Positions 3,161 to 49,903 of a stretch of 64,000 nt of DNA are shown piece after piece. Below the pieces are notes generated by a model. The model had not been told where the DNA came from and did no database searches. It saw only the letters and a list, made by a program, of their open reading frames with translations. Made by a program: the position numbers and the translations under genes. Positions within the stretch are counted from its first letter, which is position 1. Each line of letters starts with the position of its first letter. The stretch covers positions 1 through 64,000 of the IMG/VR virus record IMGVR_UViG_3300009168_000004; one strand, 5' to 3'. The stretch is from a virus.

Positions 3161-3161
3161 G

Positions 3162-6576: not shown

Positions 6577-6589
6577 CGCCGGCGAACTT

Positions 6590-7372: not shown

Positions 7373-7373
7373 T

Positions 7374-7607
7374 TCACTTCTCCTGTGCCAGTTCGATCAG
7401 TCCAATGTGGAGCAGATCCTTTACAAAGTCGTCAAACGAAGAGGTTCGAATTTCTCCTCCAGTCTGCATGACGATCCGCTCGGCCGCCTGCTTCATCCAG
7501 GTCGTGTCGTCCCCGACGGGGGAGTGGGAGGTCCGGTGCATGTGGCGGACCAGGGCTTCCGGGGTGGCCGCGTCGACCACCCGGCCGTCTACGATGTACG
7601 TGGTCAT
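7374..7607 (-). CDS. hypothetical protein of the amidoligase cluster
   Basis: 77-aa ORF between the amidoligase and GGCT genes. Confidence 0.65.
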   Translation of the reverse strand: MTTYIVDGRVVDAATPEALVRHMHRTSHSPVGDDTTWMKQAAERIVMQTGGEIRTSSFDDFVKDLLHIGLIELAQEK

Positions 7608-7608
7608 G

Positions 7609-34799: not shown

Positions 34800-35612
34800 T
34801 CATCTCCCCTTGTTTCGACTGACCTGCTGGCGGGGCTGGCTCAGCCCTCGAGGCGGGCTGCGAACCGGGGCTTCGCTTTTGCCTGGTCCCGGACCTTGGC
34901 CGAGCTGGACGACCTTCGGCCTTTCGCCACCACTGCCTTCGCCTTCTTGGCCGCCGTCTCGATCGCGGCCACCGCCTTGCCCGGTGGCCGGACGCCCCGG
35001 CCCTTCATGGCCAGCTTCTTCGCTGCCGCCCTGGCCTTCACCTGAGCCGCCGTCTGCTTCTTCGGTGTCCTCATCGCCATCCGTTCCGCTGTTGGCATCA
35101 CTCAACTCCTCATTTTCACTGTCCTCATCCTCGTCGTCTCCGATCACGAGGCCGATCTTTTCGCGCTTCAGAACCTCAGCCGGGTCCTCCTTCTTGGGGA
35201 TCGGAGCCATCAAGACCGCGTTGGCCTCGTCGACTGCACCGGCTTGGATGTGGTGAGCAGCGTTGGCCGCCCGTCGGGCCAGCTCCAGGCGCATCTCGCC
35301 GTGGTTCGGGCGCGAGCCCATGACGCCTTCGCCGATGACCCGGTTGACCACGGTCAAGATTTCGTTGTACTCGAGCTGATCGTAGTTCCGCAGAGTGTCA
35401 AGAACCGCGATGAGCTGCGGGCTGTCCTTGTCGATGTCCGTCCCCTCGGGGACGATGACGATGTTCTTGTGGTGCTTCTTGATCCTGTCGATCGTTCGCT
35501 GGGTCAGCTCTACGTTGACCGGCGATCCGACGGGAGCCTGGCGCGGGCGACCGCGCACGTTCACGAACACGCGCGGGCCGTCGCCGAAGTTCAGGAGGGT
35601 GACGATTGGCAT
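34800..35612 (-). CDS. hypothetical protein downstream of the capsid gene, acidic tail
   Basis: 270-aa ORF; the C-terminal third overlaps a nested ORF. Confidence 0.65.
   Translation of the reverse strand: MPIVTLLNFGDGPRVFVNVRGRPRQAPVGSPVNVELTQRTIDRIKKHHKNIVIVPEGTDIDKDSPQLIAVLDTLRNYDQLEYNEILTVVNRVIGEGVMGSRPNHGEMRLELARRAANAAHHIQAGAVDEANAVLMAPIPKKEDPAEVLKREKIGLVIGDDEDEDSENEELSDANSGTDGDEDTEEADGGSGEGQGGSEEAGHEGPGRPATGQGGGRDRDGGQEGEGSGGERPKVVQLGQGPGPGKSEAPVRSPPRGLSQPRQQVSRNKGR
34841..35098 (-). CDS. nested Lys/Ala/Arg-rich basic protein
   Basis: GAGGAG RBS, ATG, GC3-rich codons. Confidence 0.55.
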   Translation of the reverse strand: MPTAERMAMRTPKKQTAAQVKARAAAKKLAMKGRGVRPPGKAVAAIETAAKKAKAVVAKGRRSSSSAKVRDQAKAKPRFAARLEG

Positions 35613-35697: not shown

Positions 35698-36663
35698 TCA
35701 GCTCGGCTCGTCCCCGGAGATGCCGTCCAGGTAGCGAACAGCGCCCGGACGCCGGATCTCGAGGCCGGCGACGCGGAAGATGCCGGGGATGTCGTACACC
35801 AGGGGTCCGGTCTGCCACACGGGCAGGAAGCGATGCGGCATGGGAATGTGCATCTTGAGCACAGCCGGATCGCGGCGATACGCGACCATGCGGCCCGTCC
35901 CGCCAGTGCCCGCGTCTTCCAGTCCGCGGACGGCGCGGATGATGATCGGCCGGCCGGTCTGGAAGCTCACGATGTTCTTCGACGCGACGAAGTCCAGGAT
36001 CGTGAGGGTCGTGTCGGGGACGCGCTTCGACACCAGGATGGTCATGGCCTCACCCGGCAGGAGCAGCGTGTCCGCGTATTCGATCTGGGCTGAGCTGGTC
36101 CACATGCCAGTGAGGATGGCGTTGATGTCCGCCATGATCTCGTCGGCAGTCTTCGAGTCCCAGTCCGTCGAGCCCTCGGCGCCCTCGGCTGCCTGCACCG
36201 TGGTGATGCCAGGGTAGTCGATGATGCCGTGGAAGTTCTTGTCGCTCATGCCCCGGAGGGCAAGGTTGTCCACGAACTCCTCGTAGGCCCTGCGGGCTGC
36301 GGAGGCGCGCTCGGTGGTCAGGTTCGTGCCGGGGACCATCATGGCCTGGCCGAGCTCCTGCAGCGAGTATCGGTATCCGATGTCGGCCATCTCAACGCCC
36401 ACTTCGAACTGCGAGCGTTCGACGTCTGCGATGTGGATGTCCTTCGCGAGGTGGTGGAACCATCCCGCCTTGCCGACCTTGTCGCTCGAGAAGTACGTGA
36501 TCGACTTGGCCCACTCGTTGGCTGCCGTGTCGACCGGGATGAGCGTCGGATACTGTATCTCCGGATACTGGACCTCGACGACTTGGGGTTCGATGTAAGA
36601 CGTCTGCGACACCAGGAAGCCGAGGGCCTGCTGTGCCGCATCCGCCGAGTAGATATTGAACAT
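35698..36663 (-). CDS. major capsid protein (DUF2184 family, HK97 fold)
   Basis: IPV, GY.YS.QEL..A, W..KT.DEI..D and G.EIRRP.A..Y.DGI motifs. Confidence 0.9.
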   Translation of the reverse strand: MFNIYSADAAQQALGFLVSQTSYIEPQVVEVQYPEIQYPTLIPVDTAANEWAKSITYFSSDKVGKAGWFHHLAKDIHIADVERSQFEVGVEMADIGYRYSLQELGQAMMVPGTNLTTERASAARRAYEEFVDNLALRGMSDKNFHGIIDYPGITTVQAAEGAEGSTDWDSKTADEIMADINAILTGMWTSSAQIEYADTLLLPGEAMTILVSKRVPDTTLTILDFVASKNIVSFQTGRPIIIRAVRGLEDAGTGGTGRMVAYRRDPAVLKMHIPMPHRFLPVWQTGPLVYDIPGIFRVAGLEIRRPGAVRYLDGISGDEPS

Positions 36664-36742: not shown

Positions 36743-37231
36743 TCAGACGCCGTCGTTCTTCTCGAGGCCAGGGAAGTAGGCGATCGCACGCCCGTTCACC
36801 AAGGCACTGGTCTCCCAGCGGGCACCCTTGAGCGGACCGACGCCGCCGGTGTTCGAGAAGATGCCGGTGGTGCCGTCGAAGTGGACGGGGTCGCCAGCGT
36901 TGACCGCGACTGCAGGCTCGAGCCACATCATGCCGCGGCGGAGGACGCCGACGTTCTGATAGCGCTCGTACTTGTCGGGGTCGGTGGCGTAGGAGTTACG
37001 CATCGTGATGTCGCGGATGGACGCGCCGCGATAGAGGGCCAAGTCACCGCCGAGGATGACTGCGTTGTCGCCGAACGTGGCGATGGTCCCGCGGCTGACT
37101 GCCCGCCCGAACGGGATGCCCGTCTCGGGTTCGCAGTTCCCGGTGAACGCATCGGTCACGTCGTAGGAGCCGTGAACCGTACCCGGACCAGGCGGGCGAA
37201 TGGTCTCGACGTATTCAGTCTGGATGGGCAT
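36743..37231 (-). CDS. capsid decoration/cement protein
   Basis: IPFGRAV, V.VLR.G..W and V.AGDPV motifs; immediately upstream of MCP. Confidence 0.75.
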   Translation of the reverse strand: MPIQTEYVETIRPPGPGTVHGSYDVTDAFTGNCEPETGIPFGRAVSRGTIATFGDNAVILGGDLALYRGASIRDITMRNSYATDPDKYERYQNVGVLRRGMMWLEPAVAVNAGDPVHFDGTTGIFSNTGGVGPLKGARWETSALVNGRAIAYFPGLEKNDGV

Positions 37232-37321: not shown

Positions 37322-38545
37322 TCAGGCAGTTCCCTGCGGTGTCTTCCAAGCGTTCTGCATGCGGTTGTTGTAGTCGCTGTAGGACTTCTCTGCAGCCGCC
37401 CGGTCGCCCAGGACCGGCTGGCTGCCGCCGGTGAAGGCCGCCCTGGCGACATCGACTGCGCGGTTGGTGTCGACCGCCTTGACGCTTGCCGTGAGGGTGG
37501 CAAACGACGTGGCAACCTGCTCGTCGGTCCAGCCCTTGGCGACATCCTTGAGCGCGTGGTCGACGACCTGCCGGCGGATCTCCCCGTCGGTCTTGCCGTC
37601 CACCACCAGCTTGTCGCCGAGGATTGCAGCGGCCTTGCCCATGCAGATCGTGCGGTCGGCAACGAGCTGATCGAGCTGCTGCGGGGTCAGCTTGGCGCTG
37701 TCGAGCTGGCTCTTCAGCGTTGCGTTCTCCGCCGTTAGGGTGTCCTTGTCCTTCGACAGGGTGGTGACCTGGGCAGTCATGTCGGTGACCTGCTTGTTCA
37801 GGCTATCCGACACGCTCTTGTGCGTGGCCTCGAGCGCCTTCACCTGGTTGGCGGCGTTGTCGAGGGCGCGCTGCACGACTTGGATCGTCGTGTCGGTCAT
37901 CTCGCAGGTGATGCCGTCCACGGTCATTGTGCGCAGGTTCATTTGGTCTCTCCGGGTTGGGGGTGGTTCAGGCTCAGCGTCTTCGACGCCGAATGGCAGT
38001 TCGTCCCCGACGGATAGCCTGGCTCCGCCGCGGGCCGCTTTCACGAGGGCGATGTGGTTCGCCCGGATGTTGCGTTGGATGGCGTCGTAAGCCTCGCCGG
38101 TCGGCGTGGTGCCGGACGCAACCTCGATGTCGCACGAATACCCGACGGAGAGCTGTCGCTTGCCAGCCTCGATCGCCTTGACGGCGGACGAGTCCATGAA
38201 CAGCATCGGGACGCGGACGTATTCTTGATCTCGGAGGACGTCGCCGTCGCTCTGGCCGACCGCGTACTCGCTCCAGTTTTCGGAGGTGACCTCGACCTTC
38301 GGGTGGTCGTTGGTCAGGGGGCGGTGGGCGAGGGACGCCATCGCGTCCTTGTGGAAGACTTCGCTCTCAGGCCGGTAGACCCGGACGACGTCCTTGTCCG
38401 CCAGCTCGCCACCAATCTCCTTGCCGAGATAGAGTTGAATGCCGGTGCGCGAAACGCGGGGAGCAGCCGCCAGATAGCCCCCGGCCTTCTTGGACATGTG
38501 GGCGGCGTCGAAGGACAGCCGGTCGTACAGGTTCAGCTTGATCAT
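37322..38545 (-). CDS. DUF2213 prohead protease / scaffold
   Basis: RTGIQ.Y, YRP..EVF, T.DHP, LSVGY and NHIALV..ARGG motifs plus a coiled-coil C-terminus. Confidence 0.9.
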   Translation of the reverse strand: MIKLNLYDRLSFDAAHMSKKAGGYLAAAPRVSRTGIQLYLGKEIGGELADKDVVRVYRPESEVFHKDAMASLAHRPLTNDHPKVEVTSENWSEYAVGQSDGDVLRDQEYVRVPMLFMDSSAVKAIEAGKRQLSVGYSCDIEVASGTTPTGEAYDAIQRNIRANHIALVKAARGGARLSVGDELPFGVEDAEPEPPPTRRDQMNLRTMTVDGITCEMTDTTIQVVQRALDNAANQVKALEATHKSVSDSLNKQVTDMTAQVTTLSKDKDTLTAENATLKSQLDSAKLTPQQLDQLVADRTICMGKAAAILGDKLVVDGKTDGEIRRQVVDHALKDVAKGWTDEQVATSFATLTASVKAVDTNRAVDVARAAFTGGSQPVLGDRAAAEKSYSDYNNRMQNAWKTPQGTA

Positions 38546-38570: not shown

Positions 38571-39305
38571 TCAGGGCCTCCAGTACCGCGAGACCCAGTA
38601 GTCTTCGCGGATGGTCTCGACCTGCCAGGGCTTCCGTCTGCCGTTGAAGAACATGATGCAGGTCCGCTTCGAGATCTCGCGGAGCTTGCGATAGTCGACC
38701 GAGTAGGAGGCCACCGTCGGATAGGTGAAGCCGTCGCACCCTTCGAGACCAACCAGGTTCATGCTCAGCCACGACTGGTCGGAGCCGAGCCACTTCTTCT
38801 TGAACGTCTGAGCTGGGCTGGTGGCCGGGTCGAACTTGGACCAGATGAAGTCGAGGTCTCCGGCTGTGAACATCTGCAGCGAGCCGTTGAAGACCTTCGG
38901 ATGGTGGGCACCCGCGCAGGCCCAGCCCATGAAGCGGAACTTCTCCGTGGACTCGATCATCGGGGTGATGTCGCGCATGATGATCGCGTCCAGGTCGATC
39001 CCCATGATGCGGTGCCCGTCCCGGATCTTCATCTGAAACTGGGTGGCCGGATCGTACAGCTTGAGCCGCCTGTAGCACGACGGCAAATTTCTTTTTGTGG
39101 CGTTGGCCAGGTCTGCACCGTCCGACCACAAGGGATGCGTCTCGCAGGCGAGACCAGTCGGATCGTCCGTGACGCAGACGATGCGATGGGGCACCTTCAC
39201 GTTGGCCTGCAGAGCCTTGACCATCGCGTTTACGTGCACAGCGGAGTAGGTCGCTCGGACTGGGTTCTTCCAGTCGGTCCACTTCCAGAGGACTATGTGC
39301 AGCAT
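38571..39305 (-). CDS. GT-A fold glycosyltransferase (GT8-like)
   Basis: CVTDD, DLD, FNGS, SDQ.W and F.G..KPW motifs. Confidence 0.8.
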   Translation of the reverse strand: MLHIVLWKWTDWKNPVRATYSAVHVNAMVKALQANVKVPHRIVCVTDDPTGLACETHPLWSDGADLANATKRNLPSCYRRLKLYDPATQFQMKIRDGHRIMGIDLDAIIMRDITPMIESTEKFRFMGWACAGAHHPKVFNGSLQMFTAGDLDFIWSKFDPATSPAQTFKKKWLGSDQSWLSMNLVGLEGCDGFTYPTVASYSVDYRKLREISKRTCIMFFNGRRKPWQVETIREDYWVSRYWRP

Positions 39306-40030
39306 CAGAGGACCCGCACCCACTCGAAGCGAACAGGATTGACAGCGCGATACGGACCAGAGCCGATCTTGGCGCGGAGGACAGGGTTGCGGCGAGCGTG
39401 CCACTGCGTGTCCTTGCGTCCCCAATCCTTGGTGTTGGCGTCGAAGATGTCATCGGCCCGGAAGACTATCGTCGAAAACGCCTTGGTCGGCATTTCGATG
39501 AGGCCGGCGCCCTTAGCGCAGCGGCGGAAGTTTCCGTCTGACCCGTAGTGCCCAGCGAAGTCTTCGTCGTACCCGCCCATCGACCAGAAGTCTTCAGCTC
39601 GCATCAGGTAGCTGTTCGGATGCGGCCGTTCGAGCGAGGTACCGTTCGTGAGCACCTGGTTCGGCATGTAATATGTTCCCGATCGGACGTCCATCTGGAA
39701 AATACTCAGGAGCTGGTCCCGCGGGACCAGGTGATCCATGTCCGTCAGGAACGCCCACTCGGTCTCAACGTTCTGCATTGCCAGGTTGCGAGCCCCGTCC
39801 TGGTTCCAAGGAATGTTGGGCACCACCCGGTAGAGTTTGGTTCCTATAGGGCTTTGCTGCCCCCACTGCCAGATCGCCGTAGCGGCATCCCACCGGGGGC
39901 TCCCGTCGTCCACCAGCACGACCTTCACCCGATCCTGGAGCACCGGAGGGTAGGCTGCCCACTCGTCCAGGTGACGCTTCAGCATGTTGGGGTTGTCGTA
40001 GTAGGCCAGCACCAGGGTCAGGTCCTTCAT
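39305..40030 (-). CDS. GT2/GT7-like glycosyltransferase
   Basis: VLVDDGS, ARNL, TDMDH and F...GGYDEDF.G.YG.D motifs. Confidence 0.85.
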   Translation of the reverse strand: MKDLTLVLAYYDNPNMLKRHLDEWAAYPPVLQDRVKVVLVDDGSPRWDAATAIWQWGQQSPIGTKLYRVVPNIPWNQDGARNLAMQNVETEWAFLTDMDHLVPRDQLLSIFQMDVRSGTYYMPNQVLTNGTSLERPHPNSYLMRAEDFWSMGGYDEDFAGHYGSDGNFRRCAKGAGLIEMPTKAFSTIVFRADDIFDANTKDWGRKDTQWHARRNPVLRAKIGSGPYRAVNPVRFEWVRVL

Positions 40031-40758
40031 GGCTTTCCCCTGCTCGGCCAGGCGTCGCCCGTCCAGTACTTCGTTGTCAGTTCAAACCTGTCCGGAGGGT
40101 ATCCAAGAGACGAGTTGGCCTCCCCGAGGGTGTGGTTGACCAGGCACGGGACCCGCCAGAACATCGTCAGCCCGATCGCCTGGAAGCACGCGGAGACGAT
40201 GCCGTCCACGTTCTTGTCCCAGTGCTTCGGCCCCTCCAGGTAGTTGTGGAGCTCAGCCGAGTCGAGCAGCGCATGCGCGGACGCACGCGACAGGACCAGG
40301 CACTGGGCTCCCCACATCTTGAAGCCAATCTGCATCCCATGCGAGTGGATGCCGTCCCGGAGTCTGCTGGTGCTCTCAGCCTTCTCGCACATCTTGGACA
40401 TCCGGATGGGCAGGTACAGCGAGAGGCAGCCGAACCCCTCCCAGGTCTGGATGTTGAACAGGTCGTCGCGCAGAGCCCTGTGGGAGTTCTTCGCCCACAG
40501 GATGTCGTCCTCGCACACCATGAGGAACGGCTCCTGGGTAATTTCGACCAGGGTCCGCAGAGCCTTGAGCCAGTTGCGCAGGTTCCCCAGGAGCGGCACG
40601 TTTCTGCGAACGTACATGTTCTCGTCGAGCCGGCAGTCGACGGAGCCGTCGGAGAAGATGCGGATGTCCTGGTCGAAGCCCGCATCCCGCATCGAGGCGA
40701 GCGACCGCTCCAGCGTCAGGACTGGCCGGGGCGCAGTGATGTAGGCGATCGCTATCAT
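40027..40758 (-). CDS. GT-A fold glycosyltransferase (GT25-like)
   Basis: VCEDD, GAQC, N.D and P.LV.H motifs. Confidence 0.7.
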   Translation of the reverse strand: MIAIAYITAPRPVLTLERSLASMRDAGFDQDIRIFSDGSVDCRLDENMYVRRNVPLLGNLRNWLKALRTLVEITQEPFLMVCEDDILWAKNSHRALRDDLFNIQTWEGFGCLSLYLPIRMSKMCEKAESTSRLRDGIHSHGMQIGFKMWGAQCLVLSRASAHALLDSAELHNYLEGPKHWDKNVDGIVSACFQAIGLTMFWRVPCLVNHTLGEANSSLGYPPDRFELTTKYWTGDAWPSRGKP

Positions 40759-40898
40759 GAGTCATCGCCAAACCGGGCCAGCAGCGTCCGCCACAGGAGC
40801 TCCCACTGGCTCCGGCTCGTCCACGAGGGCCTGTCGATCCGGCACCCCTCGAAGACGACGTAGTCCAGATAGATGTCGACCGACGGGCGATCGGTCAC
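40755..40898 (-). CDS. small hypothetical protein (47 aa)
   Basis: GTGA/ATGA coupling on both sides. Confidence 0.45.
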   Translation of the reverse strand: MTDRPSVDIYLDYVVFEGCRIDRPSWTSRSQWELLWRTLLARFGDDS

Positions 40899-41488
40899 AG
40901 CTGGACCCACCAGTGGGCGACAGACATGAGGTAGTCCTTGGTGGGGCGCTTCACCTCAGCCTGCACCCGATCGCCGAACGCTTCGTGGACGGCCTTGTGC
41001 ACCCCAGGCCACAGGTAGTCGTCGCCGGACATGACCGCCCCATCCCTCATCAGGGGCAGGTAGTCGGCGATGTCCTGCTGCACGGCTTCGTAGGTGTGCA
41101 GCCCGTCGATCATGATGTAGTCGATGGACTTCGGCTCGAACAGGACCCGCGCGTCGTGGGAGTACAGCCGGTGGGGCATGATCACAGAGCTGACCGGCTT
41201 GGTGTTATCGTTGAAGACCTCGAGGGCATCCCTGCCCCTCAGGAGGGCAAAAAACTCGGTGTGCTTCAGATCGCCCCCGCCGTCGGTCCAGGGGTCGATG
41301 CAGTGCAGGGTGATGGGCTTGCCGGAGTTCAGGATCTCCACAGCCATGAACGCCGCCGACCGCCCCATCCACGATCCTATCTCCACGAAGGTGGAGGGTC
41401 GGTCCTGCGGGGCGCGCTGCACGGCGTCGACGTAGAGCTGGATGAACGACGCCCATCCGTGAATGCTCTTGTAAAAGTGTTCCATCAC
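40895..41488 (-). CDS. class I SAM-dependent methyltransferase (Methyltransf_24-like)
   Basis: VEIGSW.GRS, IDPW, IDG.HTYE.V..D and GDDY.WPGV motifs. Confidence 0.88.
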   Translation of the reverse strand: MMEHFYKSIHGWASFIQLYVDAVQRAPQDRPSTFVEIGSWMGRSAAFMAVEILNSGKPITLHCIDPWTDGGGDLKHTEFFALLRGRDALEVFNDNTKPVSSVIMPHRLYSHDARVLFEPKSIDYIMIDGLHTYEAVQQDIADYLPLMRDGAVMSGDDYLWPGVHKAVHEAFGDRVQAEVKRPTKDYLMSVAHWWVQL

Positions 41489-41724
41489 TGCGGATGTCCT
41501 TTGTTCAGGTTGGGGCGAGCGAGGAGGTCGTCGGCGTCAGAGAGGCCCGCCTTGATCACTCGCCTGAGGTCGAACGGCCAGGTCAGGACGGCGAAGATGC
41601 TGGTCTGCCTGTCCTCCAGGAAGAAGCGGTTCAACGGCTCAGCCAGCAAGAGAACGTAGACCCCAGTCAAGAGATAGCACGTCACCACGCCGAGGATGAA
41701 GTAAGCTGCGTATTCCATCTGCAT
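41485..41724 (-). CDS. small membrane protein
   Basis: hydrophobic N-terminal helix; AAAGGA RBS. Confidence 0.6.
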   Translation of the reverse strand: MQMEYAAYFILGVVTCYLLTGVYVLLLAEPLNRFFLEDRQTSIFAVLTWPFDLRRVIKAGLSDADDLLARPNLNKGHPQ

Positions 41725-41731
41725 TCCTTTC

Positions 41732-42634
41732 TTACGAGTCGAAGGTGCCTTGCTCAATCTCGTTGACCAGGACCGCCCAGGCGTCCCGGCCAACCTTTCC
41801 CGTTGGCTTCCATTCACCATCTGTTCTGGCGAAGAACGCGCAGTCGACGTAGCCGCCCATCGTCCATCCGACGGTGGTCTCGAGGATGTACCAGCGAGTC
41901 TCGTCGCGAACCATGTCGACGGCCGCCCACTTCATCCGCTCGACCTCGAAGAAGCGGTCAGAGTAGTCGAGGGCGGACCGGACCTCGTCATCTGCGTCGA
42001 CGACGCTCTGGAAGTTCCGGCTGCCCGAAGCCATCGGCCTGTCCGTCCGGTTGAACCTCCGCAGGACCAGGCGCTGCCTGCCGATCCCGACGACCCGGAC
42101 GTCGTGGTCGTTCTCCGGGATGAAGCGCTGCCACAAGAGGTAGCCAAGCTGGGCCAGGTCGTAGTGCATCGGGATGCCCCGGTCGCTGAACGCCGCCCTG
42201 ACCTCGGCCATCGCCTCCTGGTAGCTGTTGATCATGCGGACGTTGTTCGACGAAGCCCCCTCGGCGGACTTGGAGAGAAACGGGTACGCTGGCTCGTCGT
42301 TGTTCAGATACCCCTTCGCCGCCATCGGCGTGAAGAAGGCCTTGGTCGGCGGCATCCACCGCGCCAAGTGCCTGGCCTGCTCGAGCTTGTCGTCGTACAG
42401 AACCGACGAGCGATAGTCCGGAATGAGCGTGAGCCCGTTGTTGACGCTGAGGTTCTGCATCAGCTTCTTGTGGAGGCGGCGCAGGTTCGGATGGTGGTGC
42501 ATGTGCACGAAGGCGTAGCCCCGGTCCGGCTCGACGGCAGCCTCGAACATGCGGCAGGAGATGCCCCTGCCCCCGCAGGCTTCGTGGAGCCGCTTGCCCC
42601 AGCCCTGCGGATCGTCGTAGGCCCAGACGCTCAA
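41732..42634 (-). CDS. RimK-type ATP-grasp ligase
   Basis: DDK..Q, YP..SK...GASS.NV, WQRFIP.N.HDVRV, ASGS, AVD and ILE motifs; TTG start after ACAGGAG. Confidence 0.8.
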   Translation of the reverse strand: MSVWAYDDPQGWGKRLHEACGGRGISCRMFEAAVEPDRGYAFVHMHHHPNLRRLHKKLMQNLSVNNGLTLIPDYRSSVLYDDKLEQARHLARWMPPTKAFFTPMAAKGYLNNDEPAYPFLSKSAEGASSNNVRMINSYQEAMAEVRAAFSDRGIPMHYDLAQLGYLLWQRFIPENDHDVRVVGIGRQRLVLRRFNRTDRPMASGSRNFQSVVDADDEVRSALDYSDRFFEVERMKWAAVDMVRDETRWYILETTVGWTMGGYVDCAFFARTDGEWKPTGKVGRDAWAVLVNEIEQGTFDS

Positions 42635-42810
42635 CTCCTGTCCCGATGCTGCTCTTCCCAGGATGGCACCCCCAACAGGATTGCTGAGCCCGCGACCAGG
42701 AGGTGAGCTACGATCTCCCAGCCGAACGGAGTGGCGAGCACCGACACGCACAGGCACGTCGCCCCCGCCGACTGGGCGTCCAGCAGCATCCACCGATGCC
42801 ATGTTGTCAC
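42631..42810 (-). CDS. small hydrophobic protein (59 aa)
   Basis: GTG start after GGAGG; stop overlaps the ligase start. Confidence 0.4.
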   Translation of the reverse strand: MTTWHRWMLLDAQSAGATCLCVSVLATPFGWEIVAHLLVAGSAILLGVPSWEEQHRDRS

Positions 42811-43857
42811 TCACAGGTCCTCCGTCGTGAACCGTCGGTCGCGCGCAGGCACGAACACGCATCGGCAGTGCGGGTGCGCGGGGATCAAGCTGCGGGCAAC
42901 GTTGATGCGGTAGGGTCCCTCCTCGGCGATGTCTTCGCACTCCGGGCAGACCTCGTCGTCGCCGGCCGTCAGGACGTTGACGCGCTTCAGCTTCTCGATC
43001 GCCTCCTGCGCCTTCCTGATCCTGCGGACGGTCTCGCGGTGGGGCACCGTGGTCCGGCTGACCTTCGAGCCTGCCCCCGTGTTCGGATTGAACTTCCGCT
43101 TCTTGTCCTCGAAGAACGACACAGCGTCCTGCGCAGGGCGGCGGATCTTCCTGACCTCCGGGATGATGCCGACCTCGGTGACCCCGACGGACTCGTAGGA
43201 CGACAGGCTTCCTTCGTTGAATGTCCGCATGACGATCGTGTCAGCCAGGGCGTCGATGCGGGTTCCGCCCACCTTGTCGATGCGGGAGTACATCGCCCGG
43301 AGCAGGAGGTTCGCATTCTTCTTGGACAAGATCCCGTCGGCTGCAGCCCGAACCAGGTTCTGGCTGACCGCCTCGCTGATGCCCTGCAGCTCCACAAACG
43401 CAGACTGGACGATGGTGTCCACCCTGTCCCTGTGGTTCTCCGGCGACCTGGCGACGTTCAGATCCCGCGTGTTCCTGTCCGCGAACCGCAGCCCCTTCTC
43501 GAAGGCGCGCTCAACGTAGCCTGCCAGATACCGGCCATCGTGCTCGAGGACGTTCTGGGTCAGGGCGGAGTCGACGAACTGCTGGAAGCCCATGATCTTG
43601 GCTGGCCCAGCCGTGACCATGGCCGCGGCTGACATGCCCGAGAAGGCGGTCATGGGCTTCAGCCCGAGCGCGTCGTTGTCGATGATCTGCATCCGCAGCA
43701 GGGCGCGCAGCCGGTTCATGCGGATGGCCATGGCCGATCGCATGGCGGAGCGAATGGTCTTGGTCCCCGACGGGTCTCGGCTGGTCGGCTTGGCGTCCGA
43801 CAGGTAGGTGCAGCAGGAGCACCTGTCGTGGATGACCTCGTTCTTGTACTTCAGCAT
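42811..43857 (-). CDS. head morphogenesis protein (SPP1 gp7 / Mu gpF family)
   Basis: RDP..T N-terminus; TAGDDEVCPEC...IPAHPHCRC. Confidence 0.85.
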   Translation of the reverse strand: MLKYKNEVIHDRCSCCTYLSDAKPTSRDPSGTKTIRSAMRSAMAIRMNRLRALLRMQIIDNDALGLKPMTAFSGMSAAAMVTAGPAKIMGFQQFVDSALTQNVLEHDGRYLAGYVERAFEKGLRFADRNTRDLNVARSPENHRDRVDTIVQSAFVELQGISEAVSQNLVRAAADGILSKKNANLLLRAMYSRIDKVGGTRIDALADTIVMRTFNEGSLSSYESVGVTEVGIIPEVRKIRRPAQDAVSFFEDKKRKFNPNTGAGSKVSRTTVPHRETVRRIRKAQEAIEKLKRVNVLTAGDDEVCPECEDIAEEGPYRINVARSLIPAHPHCRCVFVPARDRRFTTEDL

Positions 43858-44771: not shown

Positions 44772-44999
44772 CTAGACCCACGCTGTCCCGTTCCAGAACC
44801 GGACAGGCTTGGTGATCCACGCCACGCCGTCCCACACCTTCGACGGCTTGCTGCTCCACGACGTGTCGTTCCAGACCTTGAGCCTCGAGGCGGCTGCGGC
44901 GGTCGTCACTTCGCCGGAGAAGAAGCCGCCCGACATCGCGAAGTCCCGCGGGCCGTCGTCGACGACGTATCCGCCCGTTGCGCTGAAGCTTCGACTCAT
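44772..44999 (-). CDS. small virion protein with (K/R)xW(N/D)xxxW repeats
   Basis: KVWNDTSW, KVWDGVAW, RFWNGTAW. Confidence 0.65.
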   Translation of the reverse strand: MSRSFSATGGYVVDDGPRDFAMSGGFFSGEVTTAAAASRLKVWNDTSWSSKPSKVWDGVAWITKPVRFWNGTAWV

Positions 45000-46315
45000 G
45001 ATGTCACCACCGGCTTCGGGTCGATGTAGAACGTCGAGTTGTTTCGCATCGCCATCGGATAGATCGTGATCGGTCCCTTCTCCCTTGGCGTCACCGTCAC
45101 AGCCATCGAGAACTTCGCGGTCAGCGCGCCGGCCCACGTGCCGTGTCCATCAGGCAGCGTAACAGGAGGGGCGAGATAGGAAACGTCCGCGGCGCTCGTG
45201 GCACGCGAGCCGCTGACCTGACCGTCAGTGCCGAGATATTCAACGTCGATCCAGATGTCTTGGTTGGTCGGCCGCACGCCGCCCGCCCAGATGCCTTCGA
45301 CCGTGACGGTGACCGGCACTCCAATCACTTCATTCCACACCGTGATGGGCAGGGCTTCGAACGGAAGCTTGTTGCGGTTGGACCCTGTCGCCAGTCGCCA
45401 CGAGATCGGGAAGGTGCCATCGCTCGCTCCTCCGCTCCTGACGATGGTCGCCTCGGTGAACATGCCGCCGGCCCTGTTGTGCTTCTCAGTCCTGTAGTTG
45501 GTGTCGCCGGTATCGCATCGAATGTACGTGATCTCAAGTCCGCCGAGCGAGGCGATGATGGCGCTGTACGGGGCGCAGGGTCCGATGCGACAATCCTTGA
45601 AGACGTAGGTGTGAGAGTTGGACGCCGCCCCAGAGATCATGGACTTGCCTGCCCCCATGACCGACAGGTCGCTCCCCTCCTGAAGCAATGTGCCGATAGC
45701 CGCGCCGGGAAGGTAGAGCGTCGTCGGTACGATGGCGCCAACGATGAACGGTTCGCCAAATCCACGAATGCTGACGCGCCCGCCCGGCGAGACGCCTTGC
45801 GAGACGTTGCCGAAGCTGACTTGGGTTCTCTCGAGAATTGTTATCGAGCCGTTGACGCCCGGAGCAATGCGAGATCCAGTCGCCGTACTGACCAGAGCCA
45901 GCAAGCAACGAACCATGCGCCACGACGTTTGCCCTGAGCCTATGGCAATGCTTGTGACGTTGGCGCCGGTGCCGCAGTAGAACTGCACGCCGTAGCATTC
46001 GGCGACGCTTCCGGAGAGAACGAGGTTGCCGCCTAGCTGCGTTGTAATCTTGGCCGTCGTTCGAAGGTCGGCAAAGACGGGAGGAACCGAACCGCCGACG
46101 CGCAGAACGCAATAGACGTAGCACGGACTGGCTTCGGTGCCTGGCGAAGTGATGAGCGCAGCGCCGGCGTTGATCTCATTGTGGTCATCAGCAAGAAAGA
46201 ACACATCACTGATTGCCTTGCTCGTCATCGCCGCGGCGAGCGTCAGGTATGCGTTGGCCCAGTCTGCCCCTGAGGCAGCGCCCGTCGCTCCGCTCCATAC
46301 GAAATAGTTGGCCAT
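44996..46315 (-). CDS. beta-helix-like virion appendage protein
   Basis: YFV.S.A.G...G.DWANAY.TL..A N-terminus typical of beta-helix proteins. Confidence 0.65.
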   Translation of the reverse strand: MANYFVWSGATGAASGADWANAYLTLAAAMTSKAISDVFFLADDHNEINAGAALITSPGTEASPCYVYCVLRVGGSVPPVFADLRTTAKITTQLGGNLVLSGSVAECYGVQFYCGTGANVTSIAIGSGQTSWRMVRCLLALVSTATGSRIAPGVNGSITILERTQVSFGNVSQGVSPGGRVSIRGFGEPFIVGAIVPTTLYLPGAAIGTLLQEGSDLSVMGAGKSMISGAASNSHTYVFKDCRIGPCAPYSAIIASLGGLEITYIRCDTGDTNYRTEKHNRAGGMFTEATIVRSGGASDGTFPISWRLATGSNRNKLPFEALPITVWNEVIGVPVTVTVEGIWAGGVRPTNQDIWIDVEYLGTDGQVSGSRATSAADVSYLAPPVTLPDGHGTWAGALTAKFSMAVTVTPREKGPITIYPMAMRNNSTFYIDPKPVVTS

Positions 46316-46572
46316 CAGTTGGTGTCCACCCAGACGTCGTAGAGAGCAGGGTCGAGCGGAGCCATCGTGCCGACGGTCATCCTGGCGATCCTCTCCCAGT
46401 CCGCGTTCTCTCTCGCGTACAGCTTGTCGTCGATCGGAGCCTCTGGAAGTGTATTGGCTGCCGACGCTGCCTTCCATCGCGCGCCGTCCCAGATGTACTG
46501 CGGGACGCCGCCCAGAGGAGGGACGGGATAGAGCTGACCAACTGTTGGTGAGGCAGGGAAGTTGAGGGCCAT
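46315..46572 (-). CDS. small fibre-associated protein
   Basis: NFPASPTVGQ, Y.WDG..W, PEAP.D...YAR and D.W.DT motifs. Confidence 0.7.
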   Translation of the reverse strand: MALNFPASPTVGQLYPVPPLGGVPQYIWDGARWKAASAANTLPEAPIDDKLYARENADWERIARMTVGTMAPLDPALYDVWVDTN

Positions 46573-46573: not shown

Positions 46574-49500
46574 TTATCTATACTCCTTGATTATAACTCC
46601 ACCACTGCCACCACTGCCGCCAAGAACTCCAACATTTTCATTCACTGAATAGCCAGCAGAACCGCCGCCACCGGGGAATTGTCCACCGCCACCGGCCACT
46701 AGATAATCCCCCACCTTTCCGCCAGAGCCGCCCATCGGTGCATTGCCGCCGACGCCCGGAAGCACGAACGTTGGAGTCATGCTGCCAACAGCCCACGTTC
46801 CGGGAGCGCCCGCGATGTTAAGGTCGCCGCCTGAACTCGTCCCGCCCGCGCCACCAGCGATGTTGCTAACTGCGCCACCGGCTCCACTCGTGCCGCCGCC
46901 ACCACCGCCAGCGGTCAACAAGTCTCCGAATGTCGTAGTGCCGCCAACTGCTGCGCCACCACCACCAGCGCCGATCGTCACGGTTTGCGTCGTTGGTGAA
47001 TTGATGCGCTTGCGAGCGTATCCGCCTGACCCGCCGCCGCCTCCGGTAGAGACCTGCCCCGCGGTTGTCGCGCCACCATTGCCGCCGCCGCCACCGCCGC
47101 CCCATGCTTCCACAACGATGAAAGCAACATCGTCGCTTGACGGCGACCACTCGCCGCTTGCTGTGATGATGGTCTCGCCGATCAGCAAACCATCACCGGG
47201 CAGCACGCCCTGAATGGCGACACTCCATGCATCAGACGCCACGCGCATCGTCACGTCCTGCCAGAAATAGTTACCCTCTCCGTAATTGGTTCTAGGACAG
47301 CCCGCGCCGGAAGTCGTGTACGTCGCAAGCACGTACGTAACTTCATCTGGATACTGTGCGGCTGGCGGTGGGGTCGTCATAAAATAATTGTCGTCATCGC
47401 GGGCAATGCAAATGAAAGTACCGGCAGCAACGTTGGCTGGCACTTCAAGCGCAGCCTCCACCCATCCCTCACCGATGCTTTCATCGGTCATGACGGTGGT
47501 GCCGATAAGCACGTCGAAATCGAAGTCATAAAGAAAGAGTTGTCGCGTTGATACTGCTGACGGAGCGCCCGACCTGTAGAACCTTAGATGCGTTATCTGA
47601 CAATCCACATTCATCAAAAGGACGGTACCAAAGCGAAGGTTCGCGGCCTCGACAGTTGTCGAAGGTACAGCGGCATCCGGGAAAATGTGATGGGCTGCTC
47701 CGAGTGCACTTTCTGTATCCTTCGGGCCATACAGAGCATGACCTTCTGTGTCGATGTAGTAATCTCCATCAAGCCCAAGACTGCTGGCAGGGGGACCGAC
47801 GCCGTCATGAATGATGGCTCCCGTCGCCTGTATGGCAACCGGCCACGTCTCGCCCAAAGACATGTACTGCCATTCAAGGTCGGTGCCGTAGTTGTATGGG
47901 GCCTCGTAGCCACTAGGAGGAAAGACGTCCGGGCCGTCGCCGACACCCATGCGGATGCCGAAGTGAACGGCGGCATCAGGATTGGTTGGTACCGGGGCAA
48001 CGGTTTGCGCGTAAGCTAGAGCATCAAAGGAAGCGACAATCGCCAAGTGCTGATCGGCCACAACAGGAATTGGAGCGGGGAAGGCGGCGGACACCCAACC
48101 GTCAAAGCCCGCAGTCTCAACCGTCGCATTGGTTACACCAAGCAGCGTCCCCGTCGTTCCGTCGTACAGATAAAGTTGCCGCGTCGTATTTGCAGAAGTG
48201 GGGTTGCGCCGAAACTTCGCGCTGATGACCTGCCCATCAACGAGTGCGATGAACTCGTTGCCGACCACTAATGGATTTGGGTCGAACTCCCACAAGGGAG
48301 GTTCGGTCAACATGAACTCTGGGTCCAGCATCACGGCTTCGAACTTCGGGCCGTAAAGCGTGTCCGTGTCCGTATCGATGTAGTAGTCGCCGCCCTCGCC
48401 CAGCGCATCGTCGGGCAGGCCTGTGCCTGAATGAATTGTCTGGCCGCTGCCGCCGCCGCCTCCGGTTCCTGGTATGCCTTGTGGACCTTGCGGTCCCTCC
48501 GGACCTTCAGGTCCAGCAGGACCTGCGGCACCGTCAACGCCGTCAGCTCCATCTGCACCATCAGCACCGGGCACGCCCTGGATGCCCTGAGGTCCTGCCG
48601 GGCCCACCGCTCCGTCAGCACCGGCAGGTCCTTCAGGTCCTTCAGGTCCAGCCGGTCCGGCTTCTCCGAGGGGGACCGCCACCGTCTCGACCCACTGGAT
48701 GGTGTCGCCGTCGTCGTAGTTGATGAAGAGAACGCCGATCGAGCTGTCCCACCACAGCGCGCCGACGGGCGCACCGACGGGGGCGGTGTCGCTGATGATG
48801 ATGATCGAAGCGTCGCCCCCTCCCGTGCCTGGCTCACCTTGCGGACCTTCAGGACCCATCGGCCCTTCAGGTCCCATCGGTCCCACATCGCCGGTATCTC
48901 CCTTCGGACCCTGAGATCCGTCTGCTCCATCTGCTCCAGGAGGGCCTGCTACGCCGTCAGCGCCAGCAGGACCAGCAGGACCAGCAGGGCCAGCACTGCC
49001 GTCAGCACCAGCAGGACCTTGCAGTCCAGGTTCACCGTCATCTCCCTTTGGTCCTTCTGGTCCTTCTGGTCCTTCTGGTCCTGTCGCTCCGTCGATGCCC
49101 GTCGGTCCCTGGGGTCCCTCGGGTCCAGGAGCACCTGGAGCACCGGGTTCTCCTGGGTCGCCCTTCTCGCCCACGGTCCGGAGGAGGACGGTGATGGCCT
49201 GGTTGGCTGCGAACACGCCGGAGCCCGACGCGGACACGAACTCGACGGGCACCGTGAAGTAGTCTGCGAGGTTGGTGGCCGGCGCAGTCATCCGCCAGAC
49301 CTGGTTGCTCAGAGCGAAGTCCCGGTCCTGGATGATGAACTCGTCGTCGGTGTTGGCGAGGGACAGGAGGACGGACAGGTCGAAGTCGTCCTGCGTGATC
49401 CAGTCGACCGACAGCATGGTGGCGGCCTGCTGGTCTGTGTTGTTCCAGCGCAGCTTGCCGGTGCCGGGGTCCGCCATCGCCACCGAACTTGTGTCGGCCC

Positions 49501-49903
49501 GGTAGTGGAAGACCGAGGTCGAAGCCCCCTGCTCCCCGGTGGCGCCAGTCTCACCCGGCGGGCCCTGGTCGGCGGCGTCGCCGAACACGGTCGACTGGGC
49601 TGGCCCCAGGGTCCGGACCCGCAGAGGAGCGACGATCGCCCCGTCGTTGTGCTGGAGGAAGACGAGGACCTGCTCCGACGGGTCGTCGTTGTACACGGTC
49701 ACCAGCTCGACCGTCCGGAGGATGCCCGCCCCAGGCGAGGGCGACGCCACGACGGTGCCCCCGCCCGCGTCCGCGACGATCGTGTTGAGCCTCCCCGGCG
49801 TGATCGTGTCGTCGATGGTGGTCTTGTCGACCCACGACGCGTGGACGCGCGCCGCCCTGTCGGTGACGACCTCCAGCGTGTCGCCCTCCTGGAGTATCAG
49901 CAT
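46574..49903 (-). CDS. collagen-like fibre protein with two DUF4082-like domains and a Gly-rich C-terminal domain
   Basis: two long G-X-Y tracts; G.G.P....G..GDYYIDT....LYGPK twice; WGGGGGG domain. Confidence 0.85.

What the first reader, a model, noticed from the sequence alone, without database searches (positions are those of the whole stretch)
38571..42810. Glycosylation-methylation-acylation cluster inside the head module
Seen: an ATP-grasp ligase, a methyltransferase, three distinct GT-A glycosyltransferases and small membrane ORFs, tightly coupled between gp7 and the prohead protease, more than 20 kb from the DNA-modification island. Established: glycosyltransferases in actinophage structural operons glycosylate capsid or tail proteins. 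Inference: this phage builds a multi-sugar virion glycan capped by methylation and an amide-linked group from the ATP-grasp enzyme. I do not know of that combination in a proteobacterial phage.
Basis: partly seen in the sequence, partly recalled or inferred. Interest (0 to 1): 0.8.

Follow-up and report, generated by a model that had tools for sequence, protein, structure and literature searches.

The report
Phage capsid sugar-decoration gene cassette
An uncultured 75-kb phage carries, inside its head-assembly operon, five sugar-handling enzymes built around a conserved glycosyltransferase plus ATP-grasp ligase pair; they most likely decorate a short tail on the capsid protein, which has so far been shown only for phages of mycobacteria.

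Summary
Eight translationally coupled minus-strand ORFs lie between the gp7-like head-morphogenesis gene and the DUF2213 prohead protease. They encode a RimK/LysX-like ATP-grasp ligase, a Methyltransf_24 methyltransferase and three different GT-A glycosyltransferases (GT8-like, GT2, GT13/27-like). The three small ORFs are not conserved in relatives.

New here:
- The GT8-like enzyme and the ATP-grasp form a conserved core pair. They are adjacent in 30 of 31 viral contigs and fused in both orders in 12 proteins.
- The methyltransferase and the other two glycosyltransferases are variable accessories.
- The pair sits in virion modules built on several unrelated capsid and portal families.
- Complete relatives that carry the cassette lack this phage's DNA-modification island.
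- In this capsid lineage, phages with the GT8-like gene have a 5-8-residue Ser/Thr/Tyr/Asp/Glu tail after the conserved capsid C-terminus. Phages without the gene end at that C-terminus.

Best reading (about 0.5): the cassette glycosylates virion surface proteins. The GT8-like enzyme starts the glycan and the ATP-grasp then adds an amide, as Campylobacter Cj1438 does. Nothing is shown biochemically, the tail correlation is largely one clade, and the host is unknown, so "proteobacterial" is not established. This is a new variant of a known kind.

The parts
42811..43857 (-). SPP1 gp7-like head morphogenesis gene (upstream boundary of the cassette)
   Evidence: phrog_758 4.5e-15. Homologues lie directly upstream of the cassette in L002-L016 and L033-L036.
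42631..42810 (-). sm59: small, moderately hydrophobic ORF (59 aa, GTG start one base after the gp7 stop)
   Evidence: GC3 0.78. No family hit. Not conserved in related loci. Whether it is a real gene is uncertain.
41732..42634 (-). ATP-grasp ligase (300 aa, P0001), RimK/LysX/ArgX-like; core component
   Evidence: The family has 210 clusters at E<1e-30. It is fused to the GT8-like domain in 12 representatives.
41485..41724 (-). sm79: small ORF with one strong predicted membrane helix (79 aa from the internal ATG behind AAGGA)
   Evidence: No family hit. Not conserved.
40895..41488 (-). Class I SAM methyltransferase (Methyltransf_24; P0005), probably a sugar O-methyltransferase; accessory
   Evidence: PF13578 1.5e-18. 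Weak hits to O-methyltransferase and CmcI models. Homologues sit in the same cassette position in L006, L010, L012, L015, L031, L033 and L035. Cassette methyltransferases of L021 and L041 hit RMNT_CmcI at 4.7e-5 and 3.8e-4.
40755..40910 (-). sm51: small soluble ORF (51 aa, GTG)
   Evidence: No family hit. Not conserved. Uncertain gene.
40027..40758 (-). GTa: GT-A fold glycosyltransferase with invariant E83-D84-D85 (P0003); accessory
   Evidence: No Pfam hit. Family profile hits the heparosan synthase GT-A domain at 0.002. AF2 pLDDT 91.9. Foldseek top hits GnT-I, ppGalNAc-T and POMGnT1, prob 1.0, TM 0.54-0.65. Present in L010/L036, L033 and L035.
39305..40030 (-). GT2-family glycosyltransferase (P0004), soluble, with DDGS and DMD motifs; accessory
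   Evidence: PF00535 25.8 bits, above the 23.3 cut-off. Homologues in L006, L010, L012, L015, L018, L019, L031, L033, L035 and L038.
38571..39305 (-). GTc: GT8-like retaining GT-A glycosyltransferase (244 aa, P0002); core component and the likely acceptor-directed enzyme
   Evidence: Invariant D104xD106, GSDQ and G222..P226-W227. Profile hits glycogenin at 5e-6. phrog_1962 glycosyltransferase 2.1e-5. The nearest Atlas clusters are 81-96% viral and the nearest one with a Pfam family is GT8. Present in every cassette variant of this capsid lineage.
37322..38545 (-). DUF2213 prohead protease/scaffold (downstream boundary)
   Evidence: PF09979 5.6e-51; phrog_530 1.7e-87.
36743..37231 (-). Head protein in the position of the Pam3 cement protein gp6 (phrog_563); candidate acceptor, with a C-terminal extension in cassette-bearing relatives
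   Evidence: The Pam3 gene order and the exterior cement trimer are described in PMC9942802.
35698..36663 (-). Major capsid protein (phrog_264); the last six residues SGDEPS (DNA 35701-35718) follow the conserved ...RYLDGI end; candidate acceptor tail

Best explanation
The cassette is a late-expressed glycosylation system for virion proteins.

**Proposed steps (all inferred)**
- The soluble GT8-like enzyme GTc transfers the first sugar from a host nucleotide-sugar. The acceptor is a Ser, Thr or Tyr in a short exposed C-terminal tail of a head-surface protein. The major capsid protein (tail SGDEPS) is the most likely acceptor, and the cement-like protein may be one too.
- The ATP-grasp ligase then acts on the GTc product. 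Most likely it activates a carboxylate as an acyl-phosphate and joins an amine or amino acid to it. The carboxylate could belong to a uronic-acid sugar, as with Cj1438 in the Campylobacter capsule. Less likely, it is an Asp/Glu or the terminal carboxylate of the tail itself, as with RimK and LysX.
- In this phage the GT2 and GT-A enzymes extend the glycan, and the Methyltransf_24 enzyme O-methylates a sugar.

**Shown here:** the enzyme folds and families, the core-versus-accessory structure, the fusions, the genomic contexts and the tail correlation.

**Inferred:** the acceptor, the sugar identities, the order of steps and the amide.
For: **Enzyme identities**

**Core pair**
- The ATP-grasp and GTc are adjacent in 30 of 31 IMG/VR loci.
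- Twelve representative proteins are GTc::ATP-grasp or ATP-grasp::GTc fusions.

**Asymmetry of occurrence**
- GTc occurs without the ATP-grasp in L035/L121, L038/L126 and L123.
- The ATP-grasp lacks a recognisable GTc neighbour in only one locus, L023.
- This argues that the ATP-grasp works on the product of GTc.

**Sugar chemistry**
- Sister cassettes carry NAD-dependent epimerase/dehydratases (L014, L021) and CmcI-like O-methyltransferases.

**Virion context**
- Neighbours in 19 distant loci are terminase, portal, capsid, decoration, adaptor and tail genes. No DNA-metabolism family is among the 25 commonest.
- In L020 the pair lies between the portal and gp7-like genes.
- In L008, L019 and L022 it lies directly after a phrog_29 capsid gene.
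- In L014 it lies before a major tail protein.
- The cultured Tetraselmis viridis virus S20 has a GTc homologue closing a glycosyltransferase/methyltransferase block between its capsid gene and its head-closure gene.

**Capsid tail**
- 11 distinct phages of this capsid lineage with enough upstream sequence have a 5-8-residue tail after ...Y.DGI, and all carry GTc.
- More than 40 loci end at DGI, and none carries GTc or the ATP-grasp.
- Inside the tail-bearing clade, L039/L040/L127 lacks both the tail and the cassette.

**Not DNA**
- Five cassette-bearing records have no homologue of this phage's thymidylate-synthase-like or methyltransferase-like island genes. One of them is 100% complete and one is 93% complete. 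The positive control worked.

**Precedents**
- Mycobacteriophage capsid and tail-tube subunits are O-glycosylated at their C-termini by phage glycosyltransferases (Freeman et al. 2023, as cited in PMC11256854, and from my own knowledge).
- Cj1438 combines a GT2 domain with an ATP-dependent amidoligase that amidates glucuronate after the sugar has been incorporated (PMC11800397).
Against: - There is no biochemical or proteomic evidence; the phage is uncultured.
- The tail-cassette correlation is essentially one clade plus one loss. The tree needs only two changes, so it could be shared ancestry.
- L043 has a tail but no glycosyltransferase was found. L041/L042 have a tail with two methyltransferases and an unknown protein but no recognisable glycosyltransferase.
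- In a second backbone (phrog_29 capsids) the tail is not clearly specific to cassette-bearing phages. Cassette-less AcaML1 also has six residues beyond the aligned core.
- The ATP-grasp has Thr where the ExN magnesium-binding Asn normally sits.
- The window's own GTc has Asn in place of the GT8 His of HxxGxxKPW.
- Distant ATP-grasp homologues (about 30% identity) are fused to ABC-transporter ATPase, TPR and GT4 domains. That architecture is typical of cell-surface polysaccharide synthesis.
Confidence: 0.5

Rival explanations
1. The same cassette modifies virion proteins, but the acceptor is a fibre rather than the capsid shell. The candidates are the collagen-like tail or head fibre (46574-49903) and the neighbouring 493-aa protein.
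For: - A 1109-aa collagen-like fibre gene lies between the portal and gp7-like genes in this phage.
- In L002 and L015/L016 a collagen-like gene lies between gp7 and the ATP-grasp.
- One GTa homologue is named a GR25-family transferase by JGI. From my own knowledge, GT25 includes collagen galactosyltransferases.
- In L028 the pair follows a short tail-fibre-like gene, and in L014 it precedes a major tail protein.
Against: - Minimal cassettes (L004, L005/L034) have no collagen-like gene next to them.
- GTa is an accessory enzyme, not part of the core.
- No feature of the fibres was found to co-vary with the cassette, but this was not tested systematically.
Confidence: 0.15
2. The enzymes remodel a host envelope glycan (LPS, capsule or another surface polysaccharide) during infection. 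The purpose would be to block superinfection or to keep progeny from being trapped on cell debris.
For: - Distant ATP-grasp homologues are fused to a Wzt-like ABC ATPase, TPR repeats and a GT4 domain.
- The best mechanistic analogue, Cj1438, is a capsule enzyme.
- GT8 and GT2 families are common in LPS synthesis (my own knowledge).
- Two small hydrophobic ORFs sit in the cluster.
Against: - The cassette has no flippase, polymerase, ligase, lipid-carrier transferase or GtrA/B/C-like membrane protein, and the small ORFs have no family hit and are not conserved.
- All five enzymes are soluble.
- The pair is embedded in late virion operons of several unrelated backbones.
- The family is nearly absent from 185,579 species' genomes. 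Only about five true hits were found, on phage-like or unusual contigs. That is not the pattern of a lysogenic-conversion module.
Confidence: 0.15
3. The glycosyltransferases decorate the phage's modified DNA bases, for example a hydroxymethyl-cytosine derivative made by the island at 11-16 kb.
For: - The phage has a cytosine-type thymidylate-synthase relative and associated enzymes (earlier notes).
- Phage glycosyltransferases that sugar-coat hmC DNA are well known (my own knowledge).
Against: - Five cassette-bearing phage records, including a 100%-complete one, lack homologues of the island genes.
- The cassette lies 22 kb away, inside the head operon.
- Neighbours in distant loci are structural genes, not nucleotide-metabolism genes.
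Confidence: 0.07
4. The ATP-grasp is a RimK/LysX-type protein ligase. It adds amino acids to the C-terminal or side-chain carboxylates of the capsid tail, independently of the sugar, and the glycosyltransferases act in parallel.
For: - Its closest solved structures are ArgX, LysX and RimK, all of which ligate onto protein C-terminal glutamates.
- All but one of the capsid tails contain Asp or Glu, and several end in Glu.
Against: - The ATP-grasp depends on the presence of GTc but not the reverse, and the two are fused in both orders. This fits action on the GTc product better.
- Tails persist in phages without the ATP-grasp (L035, L038).
Confidence: 0.2

Closest known systems
Mycobacteriophage virion glycosylation (Che8, Corndog, Myrna and others; Freeman et al., Cell Host Microbe 2023)
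   Same: Phage-encoded glycosyltransferases, with methyltransferases in some phages. Glycans are attached to the C-termini of capsid and tail-tube subunits. Here, capsid C-terminal tails co-occur with the cassette.
   Different: - The enzyme set differs: a GT8-like plus ATP-grasp core that no search here found in any cultured actinophage.
- The capsid lineage has its cultured relatives among phages of Proteobacteria and one cyanophage.
- Nothing is shown experimentally here.
Campylobacter jejuni Cj1438 (GT2 domain plus C-terminal ATP-dependent amidoligase) in HS:2 capsule synthesis
   Same: A glycosyltransferase coupled or fused to an ATP-dependent ligase that amidates a sugar carboxylate after the sugar has been transferred (PMC11800397). 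Here the pair is adjacent or fused, and the ligase depends on the transferase.
   Different: - Cj1438 acts on a capsular polysaccharide with a GT2 partner. Here the partner is GT8-like and the context is a phage head operon.
- Sequence homology between the two ligases was not tested.
- The sugar and the amine are unknown here.
RimK / LysX / ArgX ATP-grasp ligases
   Same: Best structural and profile matches (TM 0.72; RimK at 6e-4). The ATP-binding Lys and the acidic magnesium ligands are conserved.
   Different: Only 13-17% identity. The Asn of the ExN motif is replaced by Thr. There is no LysW- or S6-like partner. The enzyme is tied to a glycosyltransferase.
GT8 glycosyltransferases (glycogenin, LgtC, Skp1 alpha-galactosyltransferase)
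   Same: DxD, NGS/GSDQ and xxGxxKPW motifs align with glycogenin. Glycogenin and the Skp1 enzyme act on proteins or protein-linked glycans.
   Different: No hit to Pfam PF01501. The His of the C-terminal motif is Asn in this phage's copy. The family is almost wholly viral and unannotated.
Tetraselmis viridis virus S20 / SI1 head-module glycosyltransferase block
   Same: A cultured tailed virus with a GTc homologue (32% identity), further glycosyltransferases and a methyltransferase between its capsid gene and its head-closure gene.
   Different: No ATP-grasp is annotated there. The capsid family differs (HK97/D3-like). To my knowledge the block has not been studied experimentally.

Membership tests
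ATP-grasp superfamily, RimK/LysX/ArgX-like branch | Three-domain ATP-grasp fold | tested here: met
   AF2 pLDDT 94.9. Foldseek top hits ArgX, LysX and RimK, prob 1.0, TM 0.68-0.72.
ATP-grasp superfamily, RimK/LysX/ArgX-like branch | Conserved ATP-binding lysines and the D / E-x-N magnesium ligands | tested here: inconclusive
   K83, K122, Q169, D178/R180, D240 and E252 are invariant and align with the RimK motifs. The Asn of E-x-N is a near-invariant Thr254.
ATP-grasp superfamily, RimK/LysX/ArgX-like branch | Ligation onto a protein C-terminal glutamate | not testable with these tools
   Needs an enzyme assay.
CAZy GT8-like retaining GT-A transferases | DxD metal/nucleotide-sugar motif | tested here: met
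   D104 and D106 are invariant in 35 sequences and align to the glycogenin DxD.
CAZy GT8-like retaining GT-A transferases | C-terminal HxxGxxKPW motif | tested here: inconclusive
   G222, P226 and W227 are invariant. Most relatives have FFHG, but this phage's copy and several others have FFNG.
CAZy GT8-like retaining GT-A transferases | Match to the curated family model (PF01501) | tested here: not met
   No Pfam hit even at E=10. Only the profile-to-PDB match to glycogenin (5e-6) and the Atlas neighbourhood link it to GT8, hence 'GT8-like'.
GT2 glycosyltransferases | Match to PF00535 above the gathering score, with DDGS and DxD motifs | tested here: met
   25.8 bits against a cut-off of 23.3. 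VDDGS and TDMDH are seen in the translation.
GT-A fold glycosyltransferases (GTa) | Rossmann-like GT-A fold with an acidic DxD-type motif | tested here: met
   AF2 pLDDT 91.9. Foldseek GnT-I, ppGalNAc-T and POMGnT1, prob 1.0. E83-D84-D85 are invariant. The CAZy family is not resolved.
Sugar O-methyltransferases (CmcI / rhamnosyl O-methyltransferase type) | Class I SAM fold with a match to PF04989 or PF01596 | tested here: inconclusive
   PF13578 is strong at 68 bits. PF01596 is at 0.029 and PF04989 at 0.19 for this protein. Cassette methyltransferases in L021 and L041 reach 4.7e-5 and 3.8e-4 on PF04989.
Phage virion O-glycosylation system (actinophage type) | Phage-encoded glycosyltransferases expressed with virion genes | tested here: met
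   Three glycosyltransferases lie inside the head operon with coupled translation.
Phage virion O-glycosylation system (actinophage type) | Glycan attached to the C-terminal residues of capsid or tail-tube subunits | not testable with these tools
   Only a correlate was found: a 5-8-residue capsid tail present in phages with the GT8-like gene and absent in those without it.
GT + amidoligase pair (Cj1438 type) | Transferase and ATP-dependent ligase fused or adjacent, with the ligase acting after sugar transfer | tested here: inconclusive
   Adjacency in 30 of 31 loci and 12 fusions are met. The order of action is inferred only from the co-occurrence asymmetry. Homology to Cj1438C was not tested.
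Lysogenic-conversion O-antigen modification (GtrABC type) | Membrane flippase, bactoprenol transferase and serotype-specific membrane transferase | tested here: not met
   No such families in the eight ORFs at E up to 10. The enzymes are soluble and the phage contig shows no link to the bin.

The most novel reading that the evidence does not exclude
A widespread, almost purely viral two-enzyme module, a GT8-like transferase plus an ATP-grasp ligase that are sometimes one polypeptide, installs an amidated sugar or sugar-peptide on short C-terminal tails of capsid-surface proteins. The phages that carry it lie outside the Actinobacteria. This would be a second, chemically distinct way for phages to glycosylate their own particles, with accessory transferases and methyltransferases diversifying the glycan between close relatives.
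Probability: 0.35. Interest if true: 0.8.

Novelty: new variant of a known kind. Interest (0 to 1): 0.62.

Why it matters
- Virion glycosylation by phage-encoded enzymes has been demonstrated only in mycobacteriophages, where it shields particles from antibodies. That work saw little sign of it in other phages.
- This cassette points to a separate enzyme solution. The solution is common in uncultured soil and sediment phages: 210 clusters at 50% identity with E<1e-30.
- It gives a concrete acceptor hypothesis, the capsid C-terminal tail.
- It defines a minimal two-gene system (GT8-like plus ATP-grasp) that can be tested by co-expression without culturing the phage.
- If confirmed, it would widen the known chemistry of phage surfaces. 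That bears on adsorption, environmental stability and immune recognition.
- It would also assign a function to two large families of viral "hypothetical proteins".

Tried and rejected
- **Cultured relatives by DNA.** Megablast of the 10-kb region against cultured phages found nothing.
- **ATP-grasp in cultured phages.** tblastn of the ATP-grasp against 50,697 phage records found nothing.
- **Single-sequence searches.** Pfam, NCBIfam and PDB searches of the ATP-grasp, GTa and GTc gave nothing usable. Family profiles and structure models were needed. Single-sequence PDB searches of the methyltransferase and GT2 were also uninformative.
- **Complex prediction.** ATP-grasp with the capsid protein gave score 0.00, "no answer". 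This counts neither for nor against binding.
- **Second backbone.** I looked for a cassette-specific capsid tail in phrog_29 capsids and in the Tetraselmis virus S20 capsid. It was inconclusive, because cassette-less AcaML1 also has six extra residues.
- **L041 278-aa protein.** It showed no relationship to GTc or GTa by hhalign.
- **Host assignment.**
  - No spacer or sequence link connects the phage contig to the bin.
  - The bin's uL2 scores higher against Bacillus, Mycobacterium and Deinococcus references than against E. coli or Pseudomonas. This neither names the host nor proves that the bin is the host.
- **Papers.** The Freeman 2023 paper and the Iyer 2009 amidoligase paper are not held.
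- **BFVD fold search.** It found only distant viral ATP-grasps, with TM at or below 0.60.

Full report
**Setting.** The window is the first 64 kb of contig C31 of a 502-contig bin. C31 is 75,335 bp with an exact 123-bp terminal overlap, so it is a complete, circularly assembled phage genome. Its GC is 64.5%, against about 71% for the large contigs of the bin. Genes between 32 and 52 kb all run on the minus strand. In order they are:
- a portal (phrog_146);
- a 1109-aa collagen-like fibre;
- three unassigned genes;
- a gp7-like head-morphogenesis gene (42811-43857);
- the cluster under study;
- a DUF2213 prohead protease (37322-38545);
- a phrog_563 head protein;
- the major capsid protein (phrog_264, 35698-36663).

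The capsid protein is 46-51% identical to those of Aminobacter, Rhizobium and Acinetobacter phages and of cyanophage Pam3. In Pam3, the gene just before the capsid gene encodes an exterior cement trimer (PMC9942802).

**The observation.** Reading the junctions gives eight ORFs with overlapping stop and start codons and a coding GC3 signature. They are sm59, the ATP-grasp (TTG start at 42634), sm79, the methyltransferase, sm51, GTa, GT2 and GTc.
- The methyltransferase (PF13578, 68 bits) and GT2 (PF00535, just above its cut-off) are direct Pfam calls.
- The other three enzymes have no Pfam hit at all and needed family-level evidence.
- **ATP-grasp.**
  - 64 homologues were found, some named RimK-type ligases by JGI.
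  - The family profile hits RimK at 6e-4, and 12 of 33 members hit PF02655.
  - The AF2 model has pLDDT 94.9, and its best structural matches are ArgX, LysX and RimK with TM about 0.7.
- **GTc.**
  - 187 homologues were found, all unannotated.
  - D104xD106, GSDQ and G..KPW are invariant.
  - The profile matches glycogenin at 5e-6 across exactly these motifs.
- **GTa.**
  - The AF2 model has pLDDT 91.9.
  - It has a GT-A fold nearest to GnT-I, ppGalNAc-T and POMGnT1.
  - The E-D-D motif is invariant.

Of the small ORFs, only sm79 has a clear membrane helix, and none is conserved in relatives.

**Core and accessories.** A scan of IMG/VR with the ATP-grasp family returned 31 loci. In 30 of them a GTc homologue lies next to the ATP-grasp.
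- In the closest relatives the minimal arrangement is gp7-like, ATP-grasp, GTc, protease (L004, L005/L034).
- Other relatives add the methyltransferase, GT2 and GTa in various combinations.
- L033 and L036/L010 have the same five genes as this phage.
- Sister cassettes elsewhere contain NAD-dependent sugar epimerase/dehydratases (L014, L021) and O-methyltransferases that hit the CmcI/rhamnosyl-O-methyltransferase model. This fixes the cassette as sugar chemistry.

A search of 1.84 billion representative proteins found 210 clusters at E<1e-30. Among the long hits, twelve are GTc::ATP-grasp or ATP-grasp::GTc fusions.

The reverse dependence does not hold. GTc occurs without the ATP-grasp in L035/L121, L038/L126 and L123. 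I infer that GTc is the acceptor-directed transferase and that the ATP-grasp works on its product.

**Where the module lives.**
- Neighbours of the pair in 19 distant loci are terminase, portal, capsid, decoration, protease, adaptor, tape-measure and tail-tube genes.
- Specific placements are:
  - between the portal and gp7-like genes (L020);
  - directly after a phrog_29 capsid gene (L008, L019, L022);
  - before a major tail protein (L014);
  - next to a terminase (L031).
- The loci span GC 42-68%.
- In 185,579 species' genomes only about five real hits appeared, on phage-like contigs of MAGs or as unusual fusions.
- No cultured phage has the ATP-grasp.
- GTc has relatives in the cultured collection only in Tetraselmis viridis virus S20/SI1 and an EBPR siphovirus.
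- In S20 the GTc homologue ends a block of glycosyltransferases and a methyltransferase between the capsid gene and the head-closure gene.

**The target.** I compared capsid proteins of 63 viral and 44 metagenomic loci of this capsid family.
- Proteins from loci without the cassette end at a conserved ...R-Y-x-D-G-I.
- Proteins from loci with GTc carry 5-8 more residues. Examples are SGDEPS, TGDNPS, LTVDNPS, LTADSVS, LTADELS, LAAPSDSE, LTPEYE, MDANYE, SDYAS, SNYAS and VADLYT.
- These tails always include Ser, Thr or Tyr, and they nearly always include Asp or Glu.
- With enough upstream sequence to judge, 11 distinct tail-bearing phages all have GTc.
- More than 40 tail-less loci have neither GTc nor the ATP-grasp by HMM search.

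A tree puts all tail-bearing capsids in one well-supported clade. That clade also contains L039/L040/L127, which lacks both the tail and the cassette. The label needs only two changes on the tree, so the correlation is real but phylogenetically shallow.

There are two exceptions. L043 has a tail but no glycosyltransferase was found. L041/L042 have a tail with two methyltransferases and an unknown 278-aa protein.

The cement-like protein also has a longer C-terminus in cassette-bearing phages.

A replicate in a second backbone was inconclusive.

The pattern matches what is reported for mycobacteriophages, where glycans sit on the C-termini of capsid and tail-tube subunits. I rely on Freeman et al. 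2023 as cited in PMC11256854 and on my own knowledge; the paper itself was not available.

**Alternatives.**
- **DNA.** Five cassette-bearing records, one 100% and one 93% complete, have no homologue of this phage's thymidylate-synthase-like or methyltransferase-like island genes. The query does find itself in the own genome.
- **Host envelope glycans.** Two distant ATP-grasp homologues (about 30% identity) form the C-terminus of 1637-aa proteins with ABC-ATPase, TPR and GT4 domains. The best mechanistic analogue, Cj1438, is a capsule enzyme. Against this, the phage cassette has no membrane or lipid-carrier component, sits in late virion operons, and is not a prophage-type module.
- **Fibres.** Collagen-like fibre genes lie near the cassette here and in L002 and L015/L016, but not next to the minimal cassettes.

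**The ATP-grasp step.** Two models remain.
- Its nearest solved relatives all ligate onto protein C-terminal glutamates, and the tails are acidic.
- However, it depends on GTc, the two are fused, and there is the Cj1438 precedent: a GT2 domain plus an amidoligase that amidates glucuronate after incorporation (PMC11800397). These favour amidation of a GTc-installed acidic sugar. From my own knowledge, GT8 includes galacturonosyl- and glucuronosyl-transferases.

I put about 0.5 on the sugar model and 0.2-0.35 on the protein model, given that the cassette acts on virion proteins.

One oddity is that the family has Thr in place of the Asn of the E-x-N magnesium motif.

**Host.** "Proteobacterial" is not established.
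- The closest cultured capsid relatives infect Proteobacteria, and two homologous loci lie in Pseudomonadota and Sphingomonas MAGs.
- However, the contig differs from its bin by 6.5 GC points and has no spacer or sequence link to it.
- The bin's uL2 is nearer to Gram-positive and Deinococcus references than to E. coli.

**Verdict.**
Virion glycosylation with methylation and an ATP-grasp-made amide is the best reading but is unproven.
- The five-gene combination is shared with other uncultured phages.
- It is a new variant of a known kind, with interest about 0.6.

Noticed in passing
window 46574-49903 (-): A 1109-aa collagen-like fibre protein lies between the portal and gp7-like genes. It has many tail-fibre PHROG hits and a C-terminal tail-fibre-assembly-like region. 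In close relatives the portal directly precedes gp7, and collagen-like genes sit elsewhere; in L002 and L015/L016 they lie between gp7 and the ATP-grasp.
   Followed up: partly
L098:6002-10915 and L099:3117-8027: In low-GC marine genomes (a Poseidoniaceae archaeon SAG and a Gammaproteobacteria MAG), an ATP-grasp of this family (about 30% identity) is the C-terminal domain of a 1637-aa protein. The domain order is ABC-transporter ATPase, TPR repeats, GT4 glycosyltransferase, ATP-grasp.
   Followed up: partly
P0256, P0288, P0396 (ATP-grasp::GTc); P0305, P0322, P0344, P0345, P0362, P0375, P0388, P0397, P0401 (GTc::ATP-grasp): Single-polypeptide fusions of the two core enzymes exist in both domain orders.
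   Followed up: yes
L112 (NC_020840.1, Tetraselmis viridis virus S20) 2101-7684: This cultured tailed virus has a 5.5-kb block between its capsid gene and its head-closure gene. The block is annotated as two sialyltransferase-like genes, glycosyltransferases, a methyltransferase and a GTc homologue. It is a possible experimental model for head-module glycosylation.
   Followed up: partly
window 34800-35612 (-): A 270-aa ORF just after the capsid gene has an extremely acidic, Gly/Ser/Glu/Asp-rich low-complexity C-terminal half. Weak homologues lie at the same position in L005, L010 and L033. It has no family hit.
   Followed up: no
L040:1753-6534: In a cassette-less relative, the gp7-like domain is part of a 1593-aa open reading frame.
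   Followed up: no
L041:458-2459: This variant lies upstream of the protease and has two different methyltransferases (Methyltransf_24 and Methyltransf_11) plus an unassigned 278-aa protein. It has no recognisable glycosyltransferase. Its capsid protein has the tail MNSST.
   Followed up: partly
L055, L057, L061, L066-L068, L071-L074, L090, L136, L137, L141, L142: A sub-lineage of this capsid family carries a coiled-coil-like C-terminal extension of about 130 residues on the capsid protein (total about 444 aa) and has no cassette.
   Followed up: no
G000 (whole bin) versus C31: The phage contig is probably not securely binned. GC is 64.5% against about 71%, there is no spacer or sequence match to the other 501 contigs, and the bin's uL2 looks non-gammaproteobacterial.
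   Followed up: partly
window 44996-46477 (-): A 493-aa ORF has no family hit. Its true start is probably the internal MANYFVWSG..., and it lies between the collagen-like fibre and the small virion proteins.
   Followed up: no
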